A program made the position numbers. From assembly GCA_965285935.1 (NCBI GenBank), contig OZ260661.1, forward strand, positions 144,026,001 to 144,090,000: 64,000 bases of DNA, in the 5' to 3' direction. Positions 6,001 through 56,400 of this stretch are shown piece by piece; position 1 is the first letter of the stretch, and every line of letters starts with the position of its first letter. The DNA is from Ophelia neglecta. Its lineage: Eukaryota.

Positions 6001-9000
6001 AGAATCACATGGAATGAATTTCCTTATATAGGTCCTCAGCTGCCACTGTTCATTGTTCACGAATCGCAGTTCTCCCATGTTTTATTTTGAACTCTGAACT
6101 GGGGATCGCCAGATACTACATGTTAGGCCTGAACAGGCTCCTGGGCAACATCGTTTACCGACCTCTTGGCAATGGCAGTGCTAATAATCAGATCTAAAAG
6201 TTACACAATGGAAAGTGACGTCATCAAAGAGGTGACACATTTGTTATACATACATTAAACAAGTCCAGTCTGGGTACATTGTTGGACCGAAGCATTAAAA
6301 TTTGTCGCTGCATCTTTAATATGTACCCGAAACATACAAATTTCATGCAGGTGGTCTTGAACATGTAAATGCGTCTGATTATATTGTTTAGATACATAGG
6401 CCACCCCTTTCTTTCTTTTTTAAATGATGAAAATGTGATTTTCCAAGCCCGAATTGTCATGTGGTTGTACCCATAAGGCATGTATTAAAATGTGTTTCAA
6501 TTTGTGTTACAACTGACTTACACACCCTATTTGAATTTGACAGCTGTTCCTCTGATGCACCTATATGTATATTTTGCCAGTGATGTTTTCCCAGTTCTCA
6601 GTTAACACCATTATGAACACCATTACATGTATTTACTTTTTAACATCCTGTAGTTTATACATGACTCGGAGCTATAATTTTTCGAATGTTATTTTTGTTT
6701 AAACTGATCCTTTTACCTTTATTTAATTGCTTTTAAAACCATTTCACATCAGTTTGTCAACTCAACCAAATGTTACTGTACCCTAGCTCACTCAACCATT
6801 TCCCTACTGAAGCAATTCACTCAATATCAATAAAGCCCATGATTCTTTAAATTTGAACTCTTCAAATTTCTCAATCTATTAATGAATTCATGTCTGCAAT
6901 CTATATTACTTATTAAGTTCTTGTTTACATTCAAACATTTATTGTTTATCGATCATATTGATGCAGTTTTTATCCCCTCTGAACCCATTTATAACTTGAT
7001 TAACTACTTCACGTGTTTGTCTGCGGATATATGATCACTGGAAAGTGTGTGTGATGGTAGGACTGGCTGTCCTGATCAAGAAAACGAACATATTTGTGTG
7101 GAAGGCGTGGTCTAAGAATCCTTACTTCGGGTTTACATTGATATGTAACTACATGTAGCTGCACAGTATCCTTTGGCTTTTTCGTCCATTAAGGGTAATC
7201 CGGTGTGTAACGACATTGAAACAATTCCTTATCAAAAAAATCCCCGGCTTATGTGGTTCATAGTTGAGTGCTAGGAATGGTGTGAATAAAAAGCGTTTAC
7301 GGGTTGTAAAGGAGAATGTTAATGTGGACCAGTATGCGAGTGGTAATTTCGCATTGATGGGAAGTACAGGCAGTATTAAATGTATTAAAGAAATGTTTAG
7401 CGCTAATGATAATGGGATTTAGTTATTTGGAAAAGTCCACGGTGCCTGGAAAAAAAGTATCTCAGATGAACTGAATAACATGCTTTATGATTTTATCTAG
7501 AATGGCGACAGGCCAAAAGTGGGCAAATAAAATATGCATTGTGTCAAAATGGTGAACAAAGTAGTGTAAGTCCATCCAGTGACATTCTAAACTCTGAAGG
7601 TTAGCAGCGATAACAAAGAATATATAGTATGTTGGATGAGCGCCAATCGTTGTTTAAATGTCTGGTAAAAGAAGCCAATGCTTGTGACTTTTTGAACCCA
7701 GGTACTGGATCTTAAAAGCGGGTGACAAATACTACTATGTTTTGGTCGAAAGGGACTCATTTAGCTCGGAGGAAGGCTTACTATTTTTTGGGATGTAGAA
7801 TATGATATAAGCTTTTGACCAATTTGAAATACATATTTTCTAAAAAATGAAAGGCTTACATTACTCGTAAAGCGCTTTTATGATCAAGTCTGTTTCACAT
7901 TAATACATTTACTTGATCCAGTAACTGGTAAAATCCCATATCACTAGCAAATAAATACAAGTACAATGTAGCATATAGATAAATATGCATGCCTTTAGAC
8001 TGTCTAAGTGTATGTTACAGAGCTTCTACGGGCAATGAGAACATTTACCGACTGTGCGTTTTCTACGGCCGCTGAGTATGACGTCAAGATACATGTATTC
8101 TAGGTAAAGCTACTTGCTACGGGCGCGCTTGCCGAGACCGTACGCCTGGTCCATCTTGGTATAGGTGAAAGTAAAAAGTCGACCAGCACACACCGCGGCT
8201 ATAAACCGACGAACTCCCTGAAACTCAAGCGAAAGGCACGGAAAGGTGCCTACTTGCTGGAAATTACCGAAATCTAACATGGCGAAGGAGAATTTGTTCA
8301 GGCTATTTGTTATATTCATCATTAAAATAATCGGTGTCCATTGTTTGGAAGACGCTGCACAGAGTTACATAACTCGTCTGGCATTTATTTCTATGAAATC
8401 CCATGGAAATATACAGGACACGCTTGCTGCTACAGCATCAAAGCTTATTCAGTCCACTGCTCACTGCCACCCACGTCCTATGAAGGGTCCTTCCAGAATA
8501 TACCCCTACTCTCCCTGTGGCATTGTTCATTCCGGAAGCGAGGACTTTGGTATGTCCGCATACTGGAAATTAAGCGTTCACAAAACGTTAAACATTAATC
8601 TTACAATTGTTCACTTGTTACTAGAGGATTCCATGTATAAATGCCAGTTTGAGAGGCTAATTTTGACGGTTACGCTGCCTTCTGGTGTTGATATACAACG
8701 CGCATATTGCGGACATATCGTCCCTCGGAGCATCTACATAGAATCAACCGAACTAAGTTTACAATACCTTAATGACAACTCACCTACAGGAGAAAATGAC
8801 GGATTGGCGAAAGGCATTATTATTCTGTATCAAATTGTTAGTGCATATTGTTAGAACAATTACCAAAGACTTGGAAACAGTATAATTTATCATAATATGC
8901 CCCGCTTCCACACTCATAAAGAAAGTTTCAGGATAACCATACTAGCGGATTATAGTGAGCAGATCCGTAGCAGTCTCGTTGGGAACGTAACCTGTTATGA

Positions 9001-53400: not shown

Positions 53401-56400
53401 TGCATTCTGATAGCCACGCTTATCCCACTAGAAATGCTAGCATGTTTTGTATTCAAAAATTCAACTTACCTTTTTATTTAATGCAGAAGGGGTCCCTAGT
53501 TTTTATCATATACATGTTGAAATAGTCCACTACACAGTTTAAATCTTTTGTATCACATACATGTTTAAATAGTCCACTACACAGTTTAAATCTTTTGTAA
53601 AGACAAACCTTCTTGTTGTGACACACGCCTAAGTTCTTTTGATCTTGTCCTTTTGCAATCTAGGTAGGTTGACGAGTCCCATATTCCGTGGTATGAACTT
53701 GCAGCACATAACGAGTCGCTGCTCATACTTTGCAGTCTTTCTATATTCAACTTATATGTGCAAATGTATATGCGTTTTGTCTGACTAGAACTAGAAAACA
53801 ACTAGAAATGCTAGCATGTTCTGTATTCCAAAATTCAACTTACCTTTTTATTTAATGCAGTAGGGGGTCCCTAGTTTTTATCACATACATGTTAATTTTT
53901 TTTTAAATAGGTTGACGAGTCCCATATTCCGTGGTATGAACTTGCAGCACATAACGAGTCGCTGCTCATACTTTGTCTTTGTGCAGGCAGACTTTCTATA
54001 TTCAACTTATATGTGCAAATACATATGCATTGTGTCTGATTGTCTTAAATGGCGTTGTCTCAAACTAAGGAGCGACACCGTTTCACCAGCAGGTAAGTAA
54101 TGGGTTTTATAAACATAACCGGTATAGCTTTGGCTGTATTTATTCAAATTATGACTTTGCGTGATTTATCATTCGATTTTGAAACAAATCATTTTCAAAA
54201 CGGTTCCTGGCATATGTGGTGCATTGTCGCGGGTTGCTTTCAATCTTTAGTCACGTGCACGCCTTCAGCGCTAACGGTTATTCTCATAAACTCCCTTTAT
54301 AAGAGAACCAAAATCCTCAAATCCGCCATCAAATTCACGATGCCACCGTCATGGCAAAGCATACAGGAAGAATTATCTTGTTCTAGAACACACCTGCCGC
54401 GGATTGGCAAATACCAAAGGTAGTATGAGCTTGTCCTATAACTCCTAGATACTACTACACCAGGAAAGTATCGCTATATGGTAATTTTTGTGAATCTCTT
54501 GGGACGTAGCAAATTATTATAAATAATATAAAATTAATATTAATATAATATAAAAATACTATAAGGTTTCAGATCATGATAAGTATCCCTTCTTTCCACA
54601 AGAAATCACTCAAACATTACTCGGCGACGCCATTTTATGTGGAAAATATATTATGAACTATTGAACGCGAAATTTTCTTGATCACAAAAATGTCCTTGGC
54701 CTTTGGAAAGTAATAAGAAATTAAGGCACATTCGCCAAGAGCATTTTTTATTCAACAAACAATATCATTGTCCGTATGTTGACCTAAGCCCTCGAAGGTC
54801 AAATTGATGTTTATGAAAAATACTACTATGCATCCGTAAGCTTCTTTTTCCTTAATCAAATGTAATTTGAAAATATTTAGGTTATCACTGTTGAATGTTT
54901 TACTTGATGCTTCGCTTAACAAAGAAAATAAAACAATATCCTTTTATATATTTTGGATTGCTTCCTTGATATTAAGACATACAATAAATGCCATTTTAAT
55001 TTTACTTTTTCACAACATTTTTTTTTTTTGCTGTTCGCGGTTATGACATTTGAAGCATTTGTTGGTATTTCACCATTCCGCGCTGCTTTACTGATTCATT
55101 GCGCAGGAAGTGAGATTATATCGACAGAAGACCCGTAAAAAGGTGTGTCCCTTAAGAAACTTTATTTTTTAAACCAACGTACAGCTCTTCAAAGTGCCAT
55201 GGTATGCATGTCCTCAAACCAACCAACTCGCCGCTCCGTTGAGATACCTAAATGTTTTTACGTGTCGATAAACATGATAAATAGTGATTGCTGGACTTAA
55301 TTAAATGCACGCTGAAACTCATTTGACAATTTTTTATTGATGCAGCGTTAAATGAGAAAGTGTCGGCAATCTGTTTATTTTACATATATTTTCAGAATGC
55401 CCGCTCTGGCTCGAGATATTATGTTGATCCCATTTTTTTATGAAAATTCAAGTAGGTAAACAAATAGTGGCGGACAAAGATATAAATATGAATGTGCCTT
55501 TATCGAAAAAAAGTTTCAACAAAACTGTTAAGAAACATTAAGAGTATTATACAAAATGTTATTGTATGTAGTCGTCTTGGTGGGGAAAATCTTCTAAATC
55601 GGGATATTTCTTACACAGTGTCATTTTACGTCTTAGGAAGTAAACTGGAATGGTCTAGTTGCAGTAAGTTATGATTGTTAATATATTGTATACAACCATC
55701 GCGTCAATACTAGTTATTTGTATTTTTATTTATATAATGTGTGTACATATTCTACATTTCTGTACCTAGTACATTGCATTGTCCCTTGGTAGTTTTTTTT
55801 TAACCCGTCGTTTAATTTATTAAAGAATTTTCTAGTCATATTCAAAGACTAATGAGCCATAGACTTTCCTATTATGCTTTGTTATATTAAAAAGCATACA
55901 GCCATTCAGTAAATCAACAGTCAGTGTAGTAAGGTAACTTCACTCATAAAGCACTTTTAACCCTTTGGGTGTCGAACAAATACGCAATTTTGATGTCGGT
56001 AAAGTGCCACTAGAATAAGCATATTCCCCAAAGAATCATGTCTACTTATAGCAATGAAGAGTTTATGAACAACTAAATATCTCAAACTATATATTCTCTT
56101 AAAGGACAGAACCACAACAAGGATATAAAACGAAACTGCAGAGGAAAAGGAGCTGATATGGTGCCAGGGTGGACTTTTTGTATACAGAATACTAGGTAAA
56201 ATATAGAGCTGATTTTAGAGGCCCTTTACTCTTTACAAGGCGACTATTCCTGTCGAAAATTAACAGTAAAGTATGCCATCCTTAAGCTCCTGTATCATTA
56301 ATTAAGAGTAACATGAAAACCTGTAAATTGACATTGTTTAAAGTTTTGCTTGAACTTTACTTACCATGAGAACAAAGCAATATACTTATGTCTGTCTTAG

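What the first reader, a model, noticed from the sequence alone, without database searches (positions are those of the whole stretch)
7040..54445. Birth-and-death receptor cluster: one intact gene, one young pseudogene, two old relics
Seen: four same-strand paralogous loci at different stages of decay (7040-7213, 8279-16517, 38307-44681, 53665-54445). Many differences between the two long copies change amino acids. Inference: rapid turnover like that of immune or chemosensory receptor arrays.
[Added by the scan's program, not by the reader: the finding's places include an assembly gap (unread letters, written N; its length is only estimated) at 18233 to 18369. Whether the letters on both sides are continuous or in frame is not known: test that first.]
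Basis: partly seen in the sequence, partly recalled or inferred. Interest (0 to 1): 0.7.

Follow-up and report, generated by a model that had tools for sequence, protein, structure and literature searches.

The report
Duplicated snail-type receptor gene cluster
An invertebrate genome piece carries one intact and one broken copy, plus two scraps, of a giant cell-surface receptor gene of the GRL101-like family, an ordinary example of how such receptor genes duplicate and decay.

Summary
Four same-strand paralogous pieces exist. Copy B (38307-44681) is an intact two-exon gene of 2,013 codons. Copy A (8279-16517) is an unprocessed pseudogene with five lesions. There are two short fragments with in-frame stops (7002-7226; 53645-54330).

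A and B lie in a tandem segmental duplication (7985-26236 vs 38012-53262). Satellites and retroelements fill the space between them.

The gene encodes a leucine-rich-repeat GPCR of the GRL101-like kind: signal peptide, CUB, about 650 aa with no match, C-type lectin domain split by the only intron, LDLa repeats, LRRs, 7TM. Relatives found elsewhere are at most about 30% identical.

dN/dS between A and B is 0.48 and 0.39, significantly below 1, so diversifying selection is not shown. Divergence is mosaic: intron 2.7%, synonymous sites 11%, flanks 16-26%. This points to gene conversion on top of birth and death.

The N gap (18233-18369) lies 1.7 kb past copy A's stop codon, in non-coding flank. 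Its two sides match copy B in the same order and orientation.

A haplotype mis-join looks unlikely but could not be tested with reads. Clusters of this kind are in print for Biomphalaria (PMC12297450).

The parts
7002..7226 (+). Relic 1: a 225-base fragment homologous to one LDLa repeat and the linker after it (residues 357-430 of the exon-2 product), with 3 in-frame stops
   Evidence: tblastn E 8e-14, 45% aa identity. blastn 72% to copy A and 69% to copy B.
7985..26236 (+). Duplication unit A: promoter region, pseudogene and 3' flank. It includes an A-only stretch (20365-25493) and the N gap (18233-18369). Weak homology to unit B continues to 26621.
   Evidence: Collinear blastn segments against 38012-53262; extension to 26621.
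8279..16517 (+). Copy A: an unprocessed pseudogene that keeps its start codon, intron and stop codon. Lesions: TAG 8852-8854 formed at the junction of a 39-base deletion; a transposon inserted at 10086-11777; TAG at 12029 (B has ACG); TAA at 13913 (B has AAA); a 2-base deletion at 15934 that shifts the frame.
   Evidence: Pairwise alignment and codon walk; broken ORFs; tblastn 83-91% aa identity to B.
10086..11777 (.). A 1,692-base non-autonomous DNA transposon with terminal inverted repeats, inserted in exon 1 of copy A. It is flanked by a 9-base target-site duplication GTTGCCAAG (10077-10085 and 11778-11786). Copy B has the empty site at 40151-40159.
   Evidence: Read directly from the sequence. 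The terminal 17-mer occurs exactly twice, inverted, against 0.05 expected. The translation is full of stops.
12614..13009 (+). A 198-base tandem duplication in copy A (2 x 198, 98% identical) covering the last bases of exon 1, the splice donor and the start of the intron. If the first donor were used it would stay inside the intron, so it is not counted as a disabling lesion.
18233..18369 (.). Assembly gap in the non-coding 3' flank of copy A. It lies outside all four loci.
38012..53262 (+). Duplication unit B: promoter region, intact gene and 3' flank. Weak homology to unit A continues to about 53518.
38307..41018 (+). Copy B exon 1, 904 codons: Met and a hydrophobic signal-like N-terminus; a CUB domain (ORF residues 114-190); about 650 aa with no detectable relative; the first half of a C-type lectin domain.
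   Evidence: Open frame. Pfam CUB E 1.5e-5. For the last 90 aa, 19 of 19 PDB hits at E<=10 are C-type lectin domain proteins, best E 5e-4. No homologues found. dN/dS 0.48.
41019..41351 (+). The single intron of copy B, 333 bases, GTAAGT...TTTCAG, phase 0. It splits the C-type lectin domain.
   Evidence: Read from the sequence. Both exon frames close within the intron. The same intron is present in copy A.
41352..44681 (+). Copy B exon 2, 1,109 codons plus TAA: the second half of the lectin domain, a cysteine-rich middle part, four Pfam-detected LDLa repeats, an LRR block, seven transmembrane helices and a very short tail.
   Evidence: Pfam Ldl_recept_a E 2.3e-23 (4 stretches) and LRR_8 E 1.6e-18. 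AF2 model with pLDDT 83 and 7 helices. Foldseek: every row shown through rank 33 is an LGR. The profile aligns to RXFP1 from the LRRs through the 7TM.
53645..54330 (+). Relic 4: a rearranged fragment made of an LRR piece (53645-53728, repeated at 53897-53953), a TM1 piece (53745-53783) and TM1-TM3 (53965-54330). It has 3 in-frame stops and local duplications.
   Evidence: tblastn E 3e-23. blastn 82% to A and 81% to B. Internal repeats.

Best explanation
The window holds part of a tandem array of a lineage-specific receptor gene in an invertebrate genome. The organism is not identified. The window is not human-like: it has DIRS and BEL/Pao elements and a GRL101-like gene.

The gene has two exons and encodes a protein of about 2,013 aa. 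Its long ectodomain consists of a CUB domain, an unmatched region of about 650 aa, a C-type lectin domain, LDLa repeats and leucine-rich repeats, followed by a seven-helix membrane domain of the LGR (relaxin and glycoprotein-hormone receptor) type.

Shown:
- A duplication of a 13-15 kb unit gave copies A and B.
- B is still open over its whole length.
- A has been disabled by a transposon insertion, three premature stops and a frameshift.
- Two short fragments of further copies flank the pair.
- The spacer has since been filled by a 41-base satellite, a DIRS-like element and a LINE.

Inferred:
- The duplication arose by unequal crossing-over.
- Both copies were under purifying selection for much of the time since their gene bodies last shared sequence (pairwise dN/dS about 0.4-0.5), so A died fairly recently.
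- Gene conversion has partly homogenised the gene bodies, since they are much more alike than the flanks.

How the protein most likely works (inferred from domain families, not tested): the lectin, CUB, LDLa and LRR ectodomain binds an extracellular glycan or protein ligand, and the 7TM domain passes the signal across the membrane. Whether it couples to G proteins is open. Both copies read N-L instead of the usual N-P in helix 7, and no DRY-like motif is seen. The motif names are recalled, not taken from a call.
For: Duplication structure: collinear segments; indel list; no homology between the regions upstream of A and of B.

Gene model of B.

Lesions of A.

Family:
- Pfam CUB, LDLa x4 and LRR.
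- The first half of the CTLD hits only C-type lectins in the PDB, 19 of 19.
- A profile of 16 sequences aligns to the relaxin receptor RXFP1 (7tmw_R) in one stretch from the LRRs to the end of the 7TM, whole-sequence E 2.9e-60.
- The AF2 model of the LRR-7TM part has pLDDT 83 and seven helices.
- In the Foldseek list, every row shown through rank 33 is LGR4, TSHR, FSHR, LHCGR or a C. elegans LGR, E 2e-14 to 4e-10.
- End-to-end collinear relatives of the exon-2 product exist: P0074 at 28% identity, E 7e-105; P0004 at 25%, carrying Pfam 7tm_1.

Selection: dN/dS 0.48 and 0.39, both below 1 with p 1.7e-5 and 5.4e-9.

Polarising with the relics as outgroups gives 0 synonymous and 8 non-synonymous changes on the A lineage, against 8 and 13 on the B lineage. 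The numbers are small, but the direction fits a dead A and a constrained B.

Gene conversion: intron K 0.027, upstream K 0.046 and dS 0.11, against 0.147 in the first 420 bases after the stop and 74-84% identity further out. The 250-base windows range from 2 to 33 differences, dispersion 4.3, p 6.5e-13.
Against: - Pfam 7tm_1 does not hit copy B, nor 4 of 4 full-length relatives scanned, even at E<=1. The rhodopsin-type 7TM therefore rests on fold and profile evidence and on P0004's precomputed annotation.
- The second half of the lectin domain is not detected on its own.
- No homologue of the 904-aa exon-1 product was found. Its single-sequence model is useless (pLDDT 31). Most of the ectodomain is thus unexplained.
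- The longest identical run between A and B (131 bases) is not exceptional: 78 of 1000 permutations reach it. The gene-conversion case rests on regional heterogeneity, not on a clean tract.
- On the two relic-anchored segments B carries more lineage-specific changes than A (21 against 8). This is not what a simple 'A decays, B is conserved' picture predicts.
- There are no expression data, so B is intact only in the sense of an open frame.
- There are no read data, so a false duplication cannot be formally excluded.
Confidence: 0.8

Rival explanations
1. False duplication: A and B are the two haplotypes of a single locus that the assembler placed one after the other.
For: The window has a scaffold gap inside unit A. 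The whole body of copy A lies on the contig to the left of it and copy B on the contig to the right. Some invertebrate genomes are very heterozygous (general knowledge). Read depth could not be examined.
Against: - The contig to the right of the gap holds, with no N, both the tail of unit A (18370-20364, 25494-26236) and all of unit B. The 3' flank is therefore duplicated within one contiguous sequence.
- The two gap edges map to B in order and 861 bases apart, as expected if the left contig really continues into the right one.
- The 8 kb upstream of A and the 11.8 kb upstream of B share no homology at E 1e-3.
- Divergence is 5-10% in the gene and 16-26% in the flanks, with many kb-scale indels. 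That is far more than allelic difference usually is.
Confidence: 0.06
2. The two 'relics' are not whole genes that decayed in place. They are short pieces copied or moved on their own, by partial duplication, repair-mediated patching or capture by a mobile element. The array then never had more than two full copies here.
For: - The relics are tiny next to the 6.4-kb gene: 225 bases and about 690 bases.
- Nothing homologous to the rest of the gene or to its flanks lies around them.
- Relic 4 is internally rearranged, with an LRR piece present twice and joined to TM1 across a deletion.
- The window is rich in mobile elements.
Against: - Both relics sit exactly at the outer edges of the A/B pair, on the same strand and in the gene's orientation, as neighbouring array members would.
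- Relic 4 is about equally distant from A and B (82.8% and 81.2%), as expected of an older or equally old paralogue.
- No transposon ends were seen around them. This was not searched exhaustively.
Confidence: 0.3
3. Copy A is still functional. On this view its lesions are assembly errors, or they are spliced out.
For: Copy A keeps its start codon, its upstream region (95.6% identical to B's), the intron with both splice sites and the original stop codon. Pairwise dN/dS is below 1.
Against: There are five independent lesions of different kinds. One is a 1.7-kb transposon with a target-site duplication in the middle of exon 1. Two are substitution-type stop codons. One is a 2-base deletion that is not in a homopolymer run. 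Sequencing error does not produce these, and no plausible splicing removes them all while keeping the frame.
Confidence: 0.03
4. Pure birth-and-death with diversifying selection on the ectodomain, as in immune receptor arrays.
For: Non-synonymous changes make up 62% of the coding differences. The highest local dN/dS (0.91) falls in the ectodomain, at 41802-42251. Relatives elsewhere are at most about 30% identical, so the family evolves fast. The literature proposes immune or chemosensory roles for similar clusters.
Against: Gene-wide dN/dS is 0.39-0.48, significantly below 1, and no window exceeds 1. One of the two sequences compared is a pseudogene, which inflates dN on its own. The mosaic divergence indicates sequence exchange between the copies.
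Confidence: 0.12

Closest known systems
GRL101-like GPCR gene cluster of Biomphalaria sudanica (SudRes2 region; PMC12297450, passages read)
   Same: The proteins combine a C-type lectin domain, LDLa repeats, LRRs and a GPCR domain. The genes stand in a dense tandem cluster with truncated or incomplete members and with presence/absence differences between haplotypes. An immune recognition role is proposed there, not shown.
   Different: The gene here has an extra N-terminal 800 aa (CUB plus an unmatched region). Only two full-length copies are visible in 64 kb. Sequence relatedness to the Biomphalaria genes was not tested because no sequence was at hand. The paper's supplements, which list the genes, are closed.
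Lymnaea stagnalis GRL101 and its orthologues (arthropod LGR5, echinoderm GRL101; bioRxiv 10.1101/2021.04.15.440029 and PMC6267866, passages read)
   Same: The order of parts is LDLa repeats, then LRRs, then a 7TM domain related to those of the relaxin and glycoprotein-hormone receptors.
   Different: True GRL101 is described there as a conserved, usually single-copy gene with a suspected insulin-like ligand. The gene here is lineage-specific and duplicated, carries CUB and lectin domains, escapes Pfam 7tm_1 and lacks the N-P of helix 7. It is GRL101-like in architecture. Orthology was not tested.
Type C LGRs: the relaxin receptors RXFP1 and RXFP2 (PDB 7tmw)
   Same: They have LDLa, LRR and 7TM parts. 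The family profile aligns to RXFP1 from the LRRs through the 7TM in one stretch.
   Different: RXFP1 has one LDLa module and no lectin or CUB domain. Identity is low. The Foldseek top hits are LGR4 and TSHR at 11-16% identity.
Birth-and-death multigene families (vertebrate olfactory receptors, MHC, immunoglobulin-type arrays; recalled from general knowledge)
   Same: There are tandem duplicates, unprocessed pseudogenes and fragments side by side.
   Different: Here the two long copies also show signs of sequence homogenisation. Family-wide turnover cannot be measured from one window.

Membership tests
Leucine-rich repeat-containing GPCRs (LGR) | An extracellular LRR block directly N-terminal to the membrane domain | tested here: met
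   Pfam LRR_8 E 1.6e-18, plus LRR_5 and LRR_4. The AF2 model shows a regular beta-strand solenoid at residues 34-222 of the LRR-7TM piece.
Leucine-rich repeat-containing GPCRs (LGR) | A seven-helix rhodopsin-type membrane domain | tested here: met
   The AF2 model (pLDDT 83) has seven long helices. In the Foldseek list every row shown through rank 33 is an LGR aligned over LRR plus 7TM. The profile aligns to RXFP1 through the 7TM. Caveat: Pfam 7tm_1 gives no hit at E<=1 for this protein or for 4 of 4 relatives scanned; only the distant relative P0004 carries it.
Leucine-rich repeat-containing GPCRs (LGR) | Class A signalling motifs: E/DRY at the end of helix 3 and NPxxY in helix 7 (motif names recalled) | tested here: not met
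   The alignment shows B reading N-L-I-L-Y where 10 of the 13 relatives with sequence at that site (15 relatives aligned) read N-P. Copy A reads N-L-V-L-Y. No DRY-like triplet is seen at the helix-3 end, where only a Tyr is shared within this family. G-protein coupling is therefore open.
Type C / GRL101-like LGR | LDLa module(s) N-terminal to the LRRs | tested here: met
   Pfam Ldl_recept_a E 2.3e-23, four stretches. Collinear relatives have 3-4 LDLa stretches by Pfam.
Type C / GRL101-like LGR | Orthology to Lymnaea GRL101 (a tree with named LGR subfamilies) | not tested
CTL-LDL-LRR-GPCR genes of the Biomphalaria SudRes2 kind | A C-type lectin domain in the ectodomain | tested here: inconclusive
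   The first half, at the end of exon 1, hits only C-type lectin domains: 19 of 19 PDB hits at E<=10, best E 5e-4. The second half, at the start of exon 2, has no hit on its own. Pfam Lectin_C is not reported for either exon product. The joined domain was not searched.
CTL-LDL-LRR-GPCR genes of the Biomphalaria SudRes2 kind | Tandem clustering with incomplete members | tested here: met
   Two full-length units and two fragments lie on one strand within 47 kb.
Birth-and-death gene family | Duplicates that diverge independently, some becoming pseudogenes | tested here: inconclusive
   Pseudogenisation is shown. Independent divergence is doubtful: the gene bodies are 90-95% identical and the flanks 74-84%, and divergence is mosaic.
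Birth-and-death gene family | Turnover of copy number between species or individuals; a large family with many pseudogenes | not testable with these tools
   Only this window is available.
Unprocessed (duplicated) pseudogene, for copy A | Keeps the intron and flanking regions of the parent; disabled by mutations | tested here: met
   The intron and upstream region are retained. There are five disabling lesions.

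The most novel reading that the evidence does not exclude
The gene may represent an undescribed subclass of giant LGR-derived receptors. It has about 2,000 aa, an orphan N-terminal module of about 650 aa, and CUB and lectin domains. Its membrane domain has lost the classical G-protein-coupling motifs, so it may signal in another way. In addition, the neighbouring pseudogene may not be mere debris: it could serve as a sequence donor, patching the intact copy's ectodomain by gene conversion as a way to vary a recognition receptor.
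Probability: 0.1. Interest if true: 0.55.

Novelty: new member of a known kind. Interest (0 to 1): 0.3.

Why it matters
Tandem clusters of lectin-bearing GRL101-like receptors have recently been linked, by association only, to parasite resistance in snails (PMC12297450). Sensory roles have been suggested in a starfish and a triton snail (PMC6267866, PMC13403566). A cleanly resolved pair of one intact gene and one dated pseudogene, with traces of gene conversion, gives a small worked example of how such clusters change. It also shows that the family can carry a much larger ectodomain than described so far. On its own it adds a new member and a domain variant, not a new principle.

Tried and rejected
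- Homologues of the exon-1 product: word-indexed protein searches among longer and near-length proteins both found nothing at E<=1e-3. The shorter length class was not searched.
- ESM Atlas look-ups gave only sub-threshold leads: Lectin_C and CUB clusters at 0.83, and 0.76 for the middle part. I treat them as leads only.
- The AF2 single-sequence model of the 904-aa exon-1 product has pLDDT 31 and is unusable. No fold search was made with it.
- phmmer of the LRR-7TM piece against 1.84 billion representatives was largely swamped by giant LRR proteins. About a dozen of the 150 listed hits are collinear receptors of about 1,050-1,170 aa at 27-31% identity. None is close, so neither the organism nor close paralogues could be identified.
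- Pfam at E<=10 on both exon products added nothing beyond CUB, LDLa and LRR.
- A search for a further relic after unit A (26237-38011) found none.
- The longest-identical-run test for a conversion tract was not significant: 78 of 1000 permutations reach the observed run.
- The Rfam and tRNA scans were empty.
- The closed collections (metagenome contigs, viral contigs) were not used. Genome contigs holds only bacteria and archaea and was not used either.
- The two exons were never joined for any search or fold. The full lectin domain and the full-length protein therefore stay unsearched.
- Literature: 'GRL101' together with 'pseudogene' returned one unrelated preprint. I found no printed description of a CUB-bearing GRL101-like gene. 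Those searches cover only the held library, and supplements are closed.

Full report
**What the window is.** GC content runs at 31-49% in 2-kb steps. There are long open frames under the standard code and several retroelements. Together with the gene described below, this marks an invertebrate animal genome. Nothing suggests human sequence. The organism could not be identified: the only protein relatives found are at most about 30% identical and unnamed, and the tool that could have named them was switched off.

**The gap, tested first.** The only N run is 18233-18369.
- It starts 1,716 bases downstream of copy A's stop codon, in non-coding flank, and touches none of the four loci.
- The 503 bases to its left (17730-18232) align to copy B's flank at 46535-47041 (83.7%).
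- The 499 bases to its right (18370-18868) align to 47903-48430 (79.9%).
- Strand and order are the same, and both alignments end exactly at the gap edges.

The join therefore looks continuous. B has 861 bases between the two anchors against 137 N, so the stated gap length may be too short.

**The observation.** Self-comparison shows a same-strand segmental duplication. Unit A is 7985-20364 plus 25494-26236, with faint continuation to 26621. Unit B is 38012-53262.
- The gene bodies are 90.5-95% identical and the 3' flanks only 74-84%.
- Searching the window with the two exon products of copy B recovers copy A in pieces at 83-91% amino-acid identity.
- Relic 1 (7002-7226) is an LDLa piece with 45% identity, E 8e-14 and 3 stops.
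- Relic 4 (53645-54330) is an LRR piece present twice plus TM1-TM3, with 50% identity, E 3e-23 and 3 stops. It has local duplications.

**Copy B.**
- The frame 38250-41036 holds a Met at 38307, followed by a hydrophobic, signal-like stretch.
- Exon 1 ends at 41018 before GTAAGT.
- The 333-base intron ends in TTTCAG at 41351.
- Exon 2 runs from 41352 to the TAA at 44679-44681.
- Both junctions are phase 0. This gives 904 + 1,109 codons.

**Copy A.** A pairwise alignment and a codon walk show five disabling lesions:
- a TAG at 8852-8854, created at the junction of a 39-base deletion;
- a 1,692-base transposon at 10086-11777, with inverted ends of about 80 bases and a 9-base target-site duplication GTTGCCAAG, while B has the empty site;
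- a TAG at 12029 where B has ACG;
- a TAA at 13913 where B has AAA;
- a 2-base deletion at 15934, not in a homopolymer run.

A 198-base tandem duplication over the splice donor (12614-13009) need not disable the gene. A keeps its start codon, upstream region, intron and stop codon, so it is an unprocessed pseudogene.

**What the gene encodes.**
- Pfam finds one CUB domain in exon 1, and four LDLa stretches and an LRR block in exon 2.
- The last 90 residues of exon 1 hit only C-type lectin domains in the PDB: 19 of 19 hits at E<=10, best 5e-4, all aligned to the first half of the domain.
- The start of exon 2 is not recognisable alone. It does align with the N-termini of the relatives.
- The remaining 650 or so residues of exon 1 have no relative in two searches and only weak Atlas leads. 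The single-sequence fold failed.
- For the C-terminal 530 residues I built a 16-sequence alignment with collinear relatives.
- Its profile aligns to the relaxin receptor RXFP1 in one stretch from the LRRs through the membrane domain.
- The AF2 model (pLDDT 83) shows an LRR solenoid followed by seven long helices.
- In the Foldseek list of solved structures, every row shown through rank 33 is LGR4, TSHR, FSHR, LHCGR or a nematode LGR.

The protein is therefore an LGR with LDLa repeats, that is, GRL101-like, enlarged by lectin and CUB domains and an orphan module.

Two caveats apply. Pfam 7tm_1 misses it and 4 of 4 relatives scanned. Both copies read N-L where most relatives read N-P in helix 7, and no DRY-like motif is visible. 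G-protein coupling is therefore uncertain. The motif names are recalled.

**Selection.** Nei-Gojobori estimates, exon by exon:

| Exon | dS | dN | dN/dS | Codons |
|---|---|---|---|---|
| Exon 1 | 0.118 | 0.057 | 0.48 | 883 |
| Exon 2 | 0.112 | 0.044 | 0.39 | 1,106 |

Both ratios are below 1 (Fisher p 1.7e-5 and 5.4e-9). The highest 150-codon window is 0.91. Many differences do change amino acids (62% of them), but fewer than the 78% expected without constraint.

Because one partner is dead, a ratio this low means both copies were constrained for much of their separate history. This fits a fairly recent death of A.

Using the relics as outgroups on two short segments, A has 0 synonymous and 8 non-synonymous private changes, and B has 8 and 13. 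The direction fits, but the numbers are small. B unexpectedly has more changes in total.

**Mosaic divergence.**
- Differences per 250 bases range from 2 to 33 (dispersion 4.3, p 6.5e-13).
- The intron differs by 2.7% and the 300 bases upstream by 4.4%.
- Synonymous sites differ by about 11% and the first 420 bases after the stop by 13%. The outer flanks differ by 16-26%.

Constraint cannot explain a nearly identical intron. Gene conversion between the copies is the simplest reading. A run-length test did not single out a clean tract, though (78 of 1000 permutations).

A consequence is that gene-body similarity understates the age of the duplication. Relic 4 is 17-19% from A and B and need not be older than the A/B split. 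Relic 1 is about 30% away.

**Surroundings.** Between the units lie:
- a 41-base satellite in three blocks (26586-26749, 31194-31559, 36653-36816);
- a DIRS-like element (about 26.7-30.6 kb) with zinc knuckle, reverse transcriptase and tyrosine recombinase, flanked by 246-base repeats;
- a LINE on the minus strand (32.1-35.7 kb).

The satellite looks like one array split by the two insertions. A BEL/Pao element with an open 1,505-codon frame runs off the right end.

**Haplotype mis-join?** Four points count against it:
- The right-hand contig alone carries both the tail of unit A and all of unit B.
- The gap edges map in order onto B.
- The regions upstream of A and of B share nothing.
- The divergence is far above allelic levels.

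It cannot be excluded without reads. I put it at about 6%.

**Comparison with what is known.** The closest printed case is the SudRes2 region of Biomphalaria sudanica. It holds twelve GRL101-like genes with lectin, LDLa, LRR and GPCR parts in 440 kb. Some are incomplete and some are present in only one haplotype, and the region is associated with schistosome resistance (PMC12297450, passages).

GRL101-like genes are also reported in three other settings:
- as expanded in a clam genome (PMC6831834, one passage);
- as expressed in the sensory organs of a starfish (PMC6267866, passages);
- as expressed in the sensory tentacles of a triton snail (PMC13403566, passages).

True GRL101 is described as a conserved LGR with a suspected insulin-like ligand (bioRxiv 10.1101/2021.04.15.440029, passages).

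The gene here shares the architecture but adds CUB and an orphan module. Orthology was not tested. Supplements of these papers, which may list domain variants, are closed.

**Verdict.** This is a real, ordinary tandem duplication of a GRL101-like receptor gene with one unprocessed pseudogene and two fragments. Transposon insertion, point mutations and probably gene conversion have shaped it. There is no evidence of diversifying selection. It is a new member, with a domain variant, of a known kind. Interest is modest.

Noticed in passing
window 59486-64000 (+): A BEL/Pao-type LTR retrotransposon polyprotein frame, open for 1,505 codons and running off the window end (Pfam Peptidase_A17 E 4.6e-47, DUF1759). 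It looks young or active.
   Followed up: partly
window 26728-30581 (+): A DIRS-like retroelement with zinc knuckle, reverse transcriptase and tyrosine recombinase (Phage_integrase) frames, lying between two 246-base repeats that are 99.6% identical (26728-26973 and 30336-30581).
   Followed up: partly
window 32099-35694 (-): A LINE-like element: two adjoining frames of 566 and 667 aa with RVT_1 and zf-RVT. Further reverse-transcriptase fragments lie at 2-529 (-) and 57531-58508 (-).
   Followed up: partly
window 26586-26749, 31194-31559, 36653-36816: A 41-base satellite in three blocks that bracket the DIRS-like and LINE elements, as if one array between the two gene units had been split by both insertions.
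   Followed up: no
window 4701-5432: A C-rich 33-base tandem repeat, about 22 copies at 88% match. It accounts for the GC and skew spike in the 4-6 kb window. The 176-aa 'ORF' on the minus strand here has no Pfam match.
   Followed up: no
window 20365-25493: A 5.1-kb stretch present in unit A's flank but absent from unit B (the junction in B is near 52540). It has no ORF of 100 aa or more, no internal direct or inverted repeats and no recognisable ends. Its origin is unknown.
   Followed up: partly
window 44640-44660 and 16475-16495: Both the intact gene and the pseudogene read Asn-Leu where most relatives have the Asn-Pro of helix 7. The loss therefore predates the A/B split and belongs to a gene that stayed under constraint.
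   Followed up: partly
window 38900-40750: About 650 residues of the exon-1 product between the CUB and lectin domains have no detectable relative or domain, yet show dN/dS of 0.5-0.66 between the copies. This is a constrained orphan ectodomain module.
   Followed up: partly
window 53427-54039: Local duplications inside and just before relic 4: 53427-53518 matches 53801-53893 at 95%, and 53665-53784 matches 53908-54039 at 87%. A stretch at 26480-26621, at the end of unit A, matches the first of these twice.
   Followed up: partly
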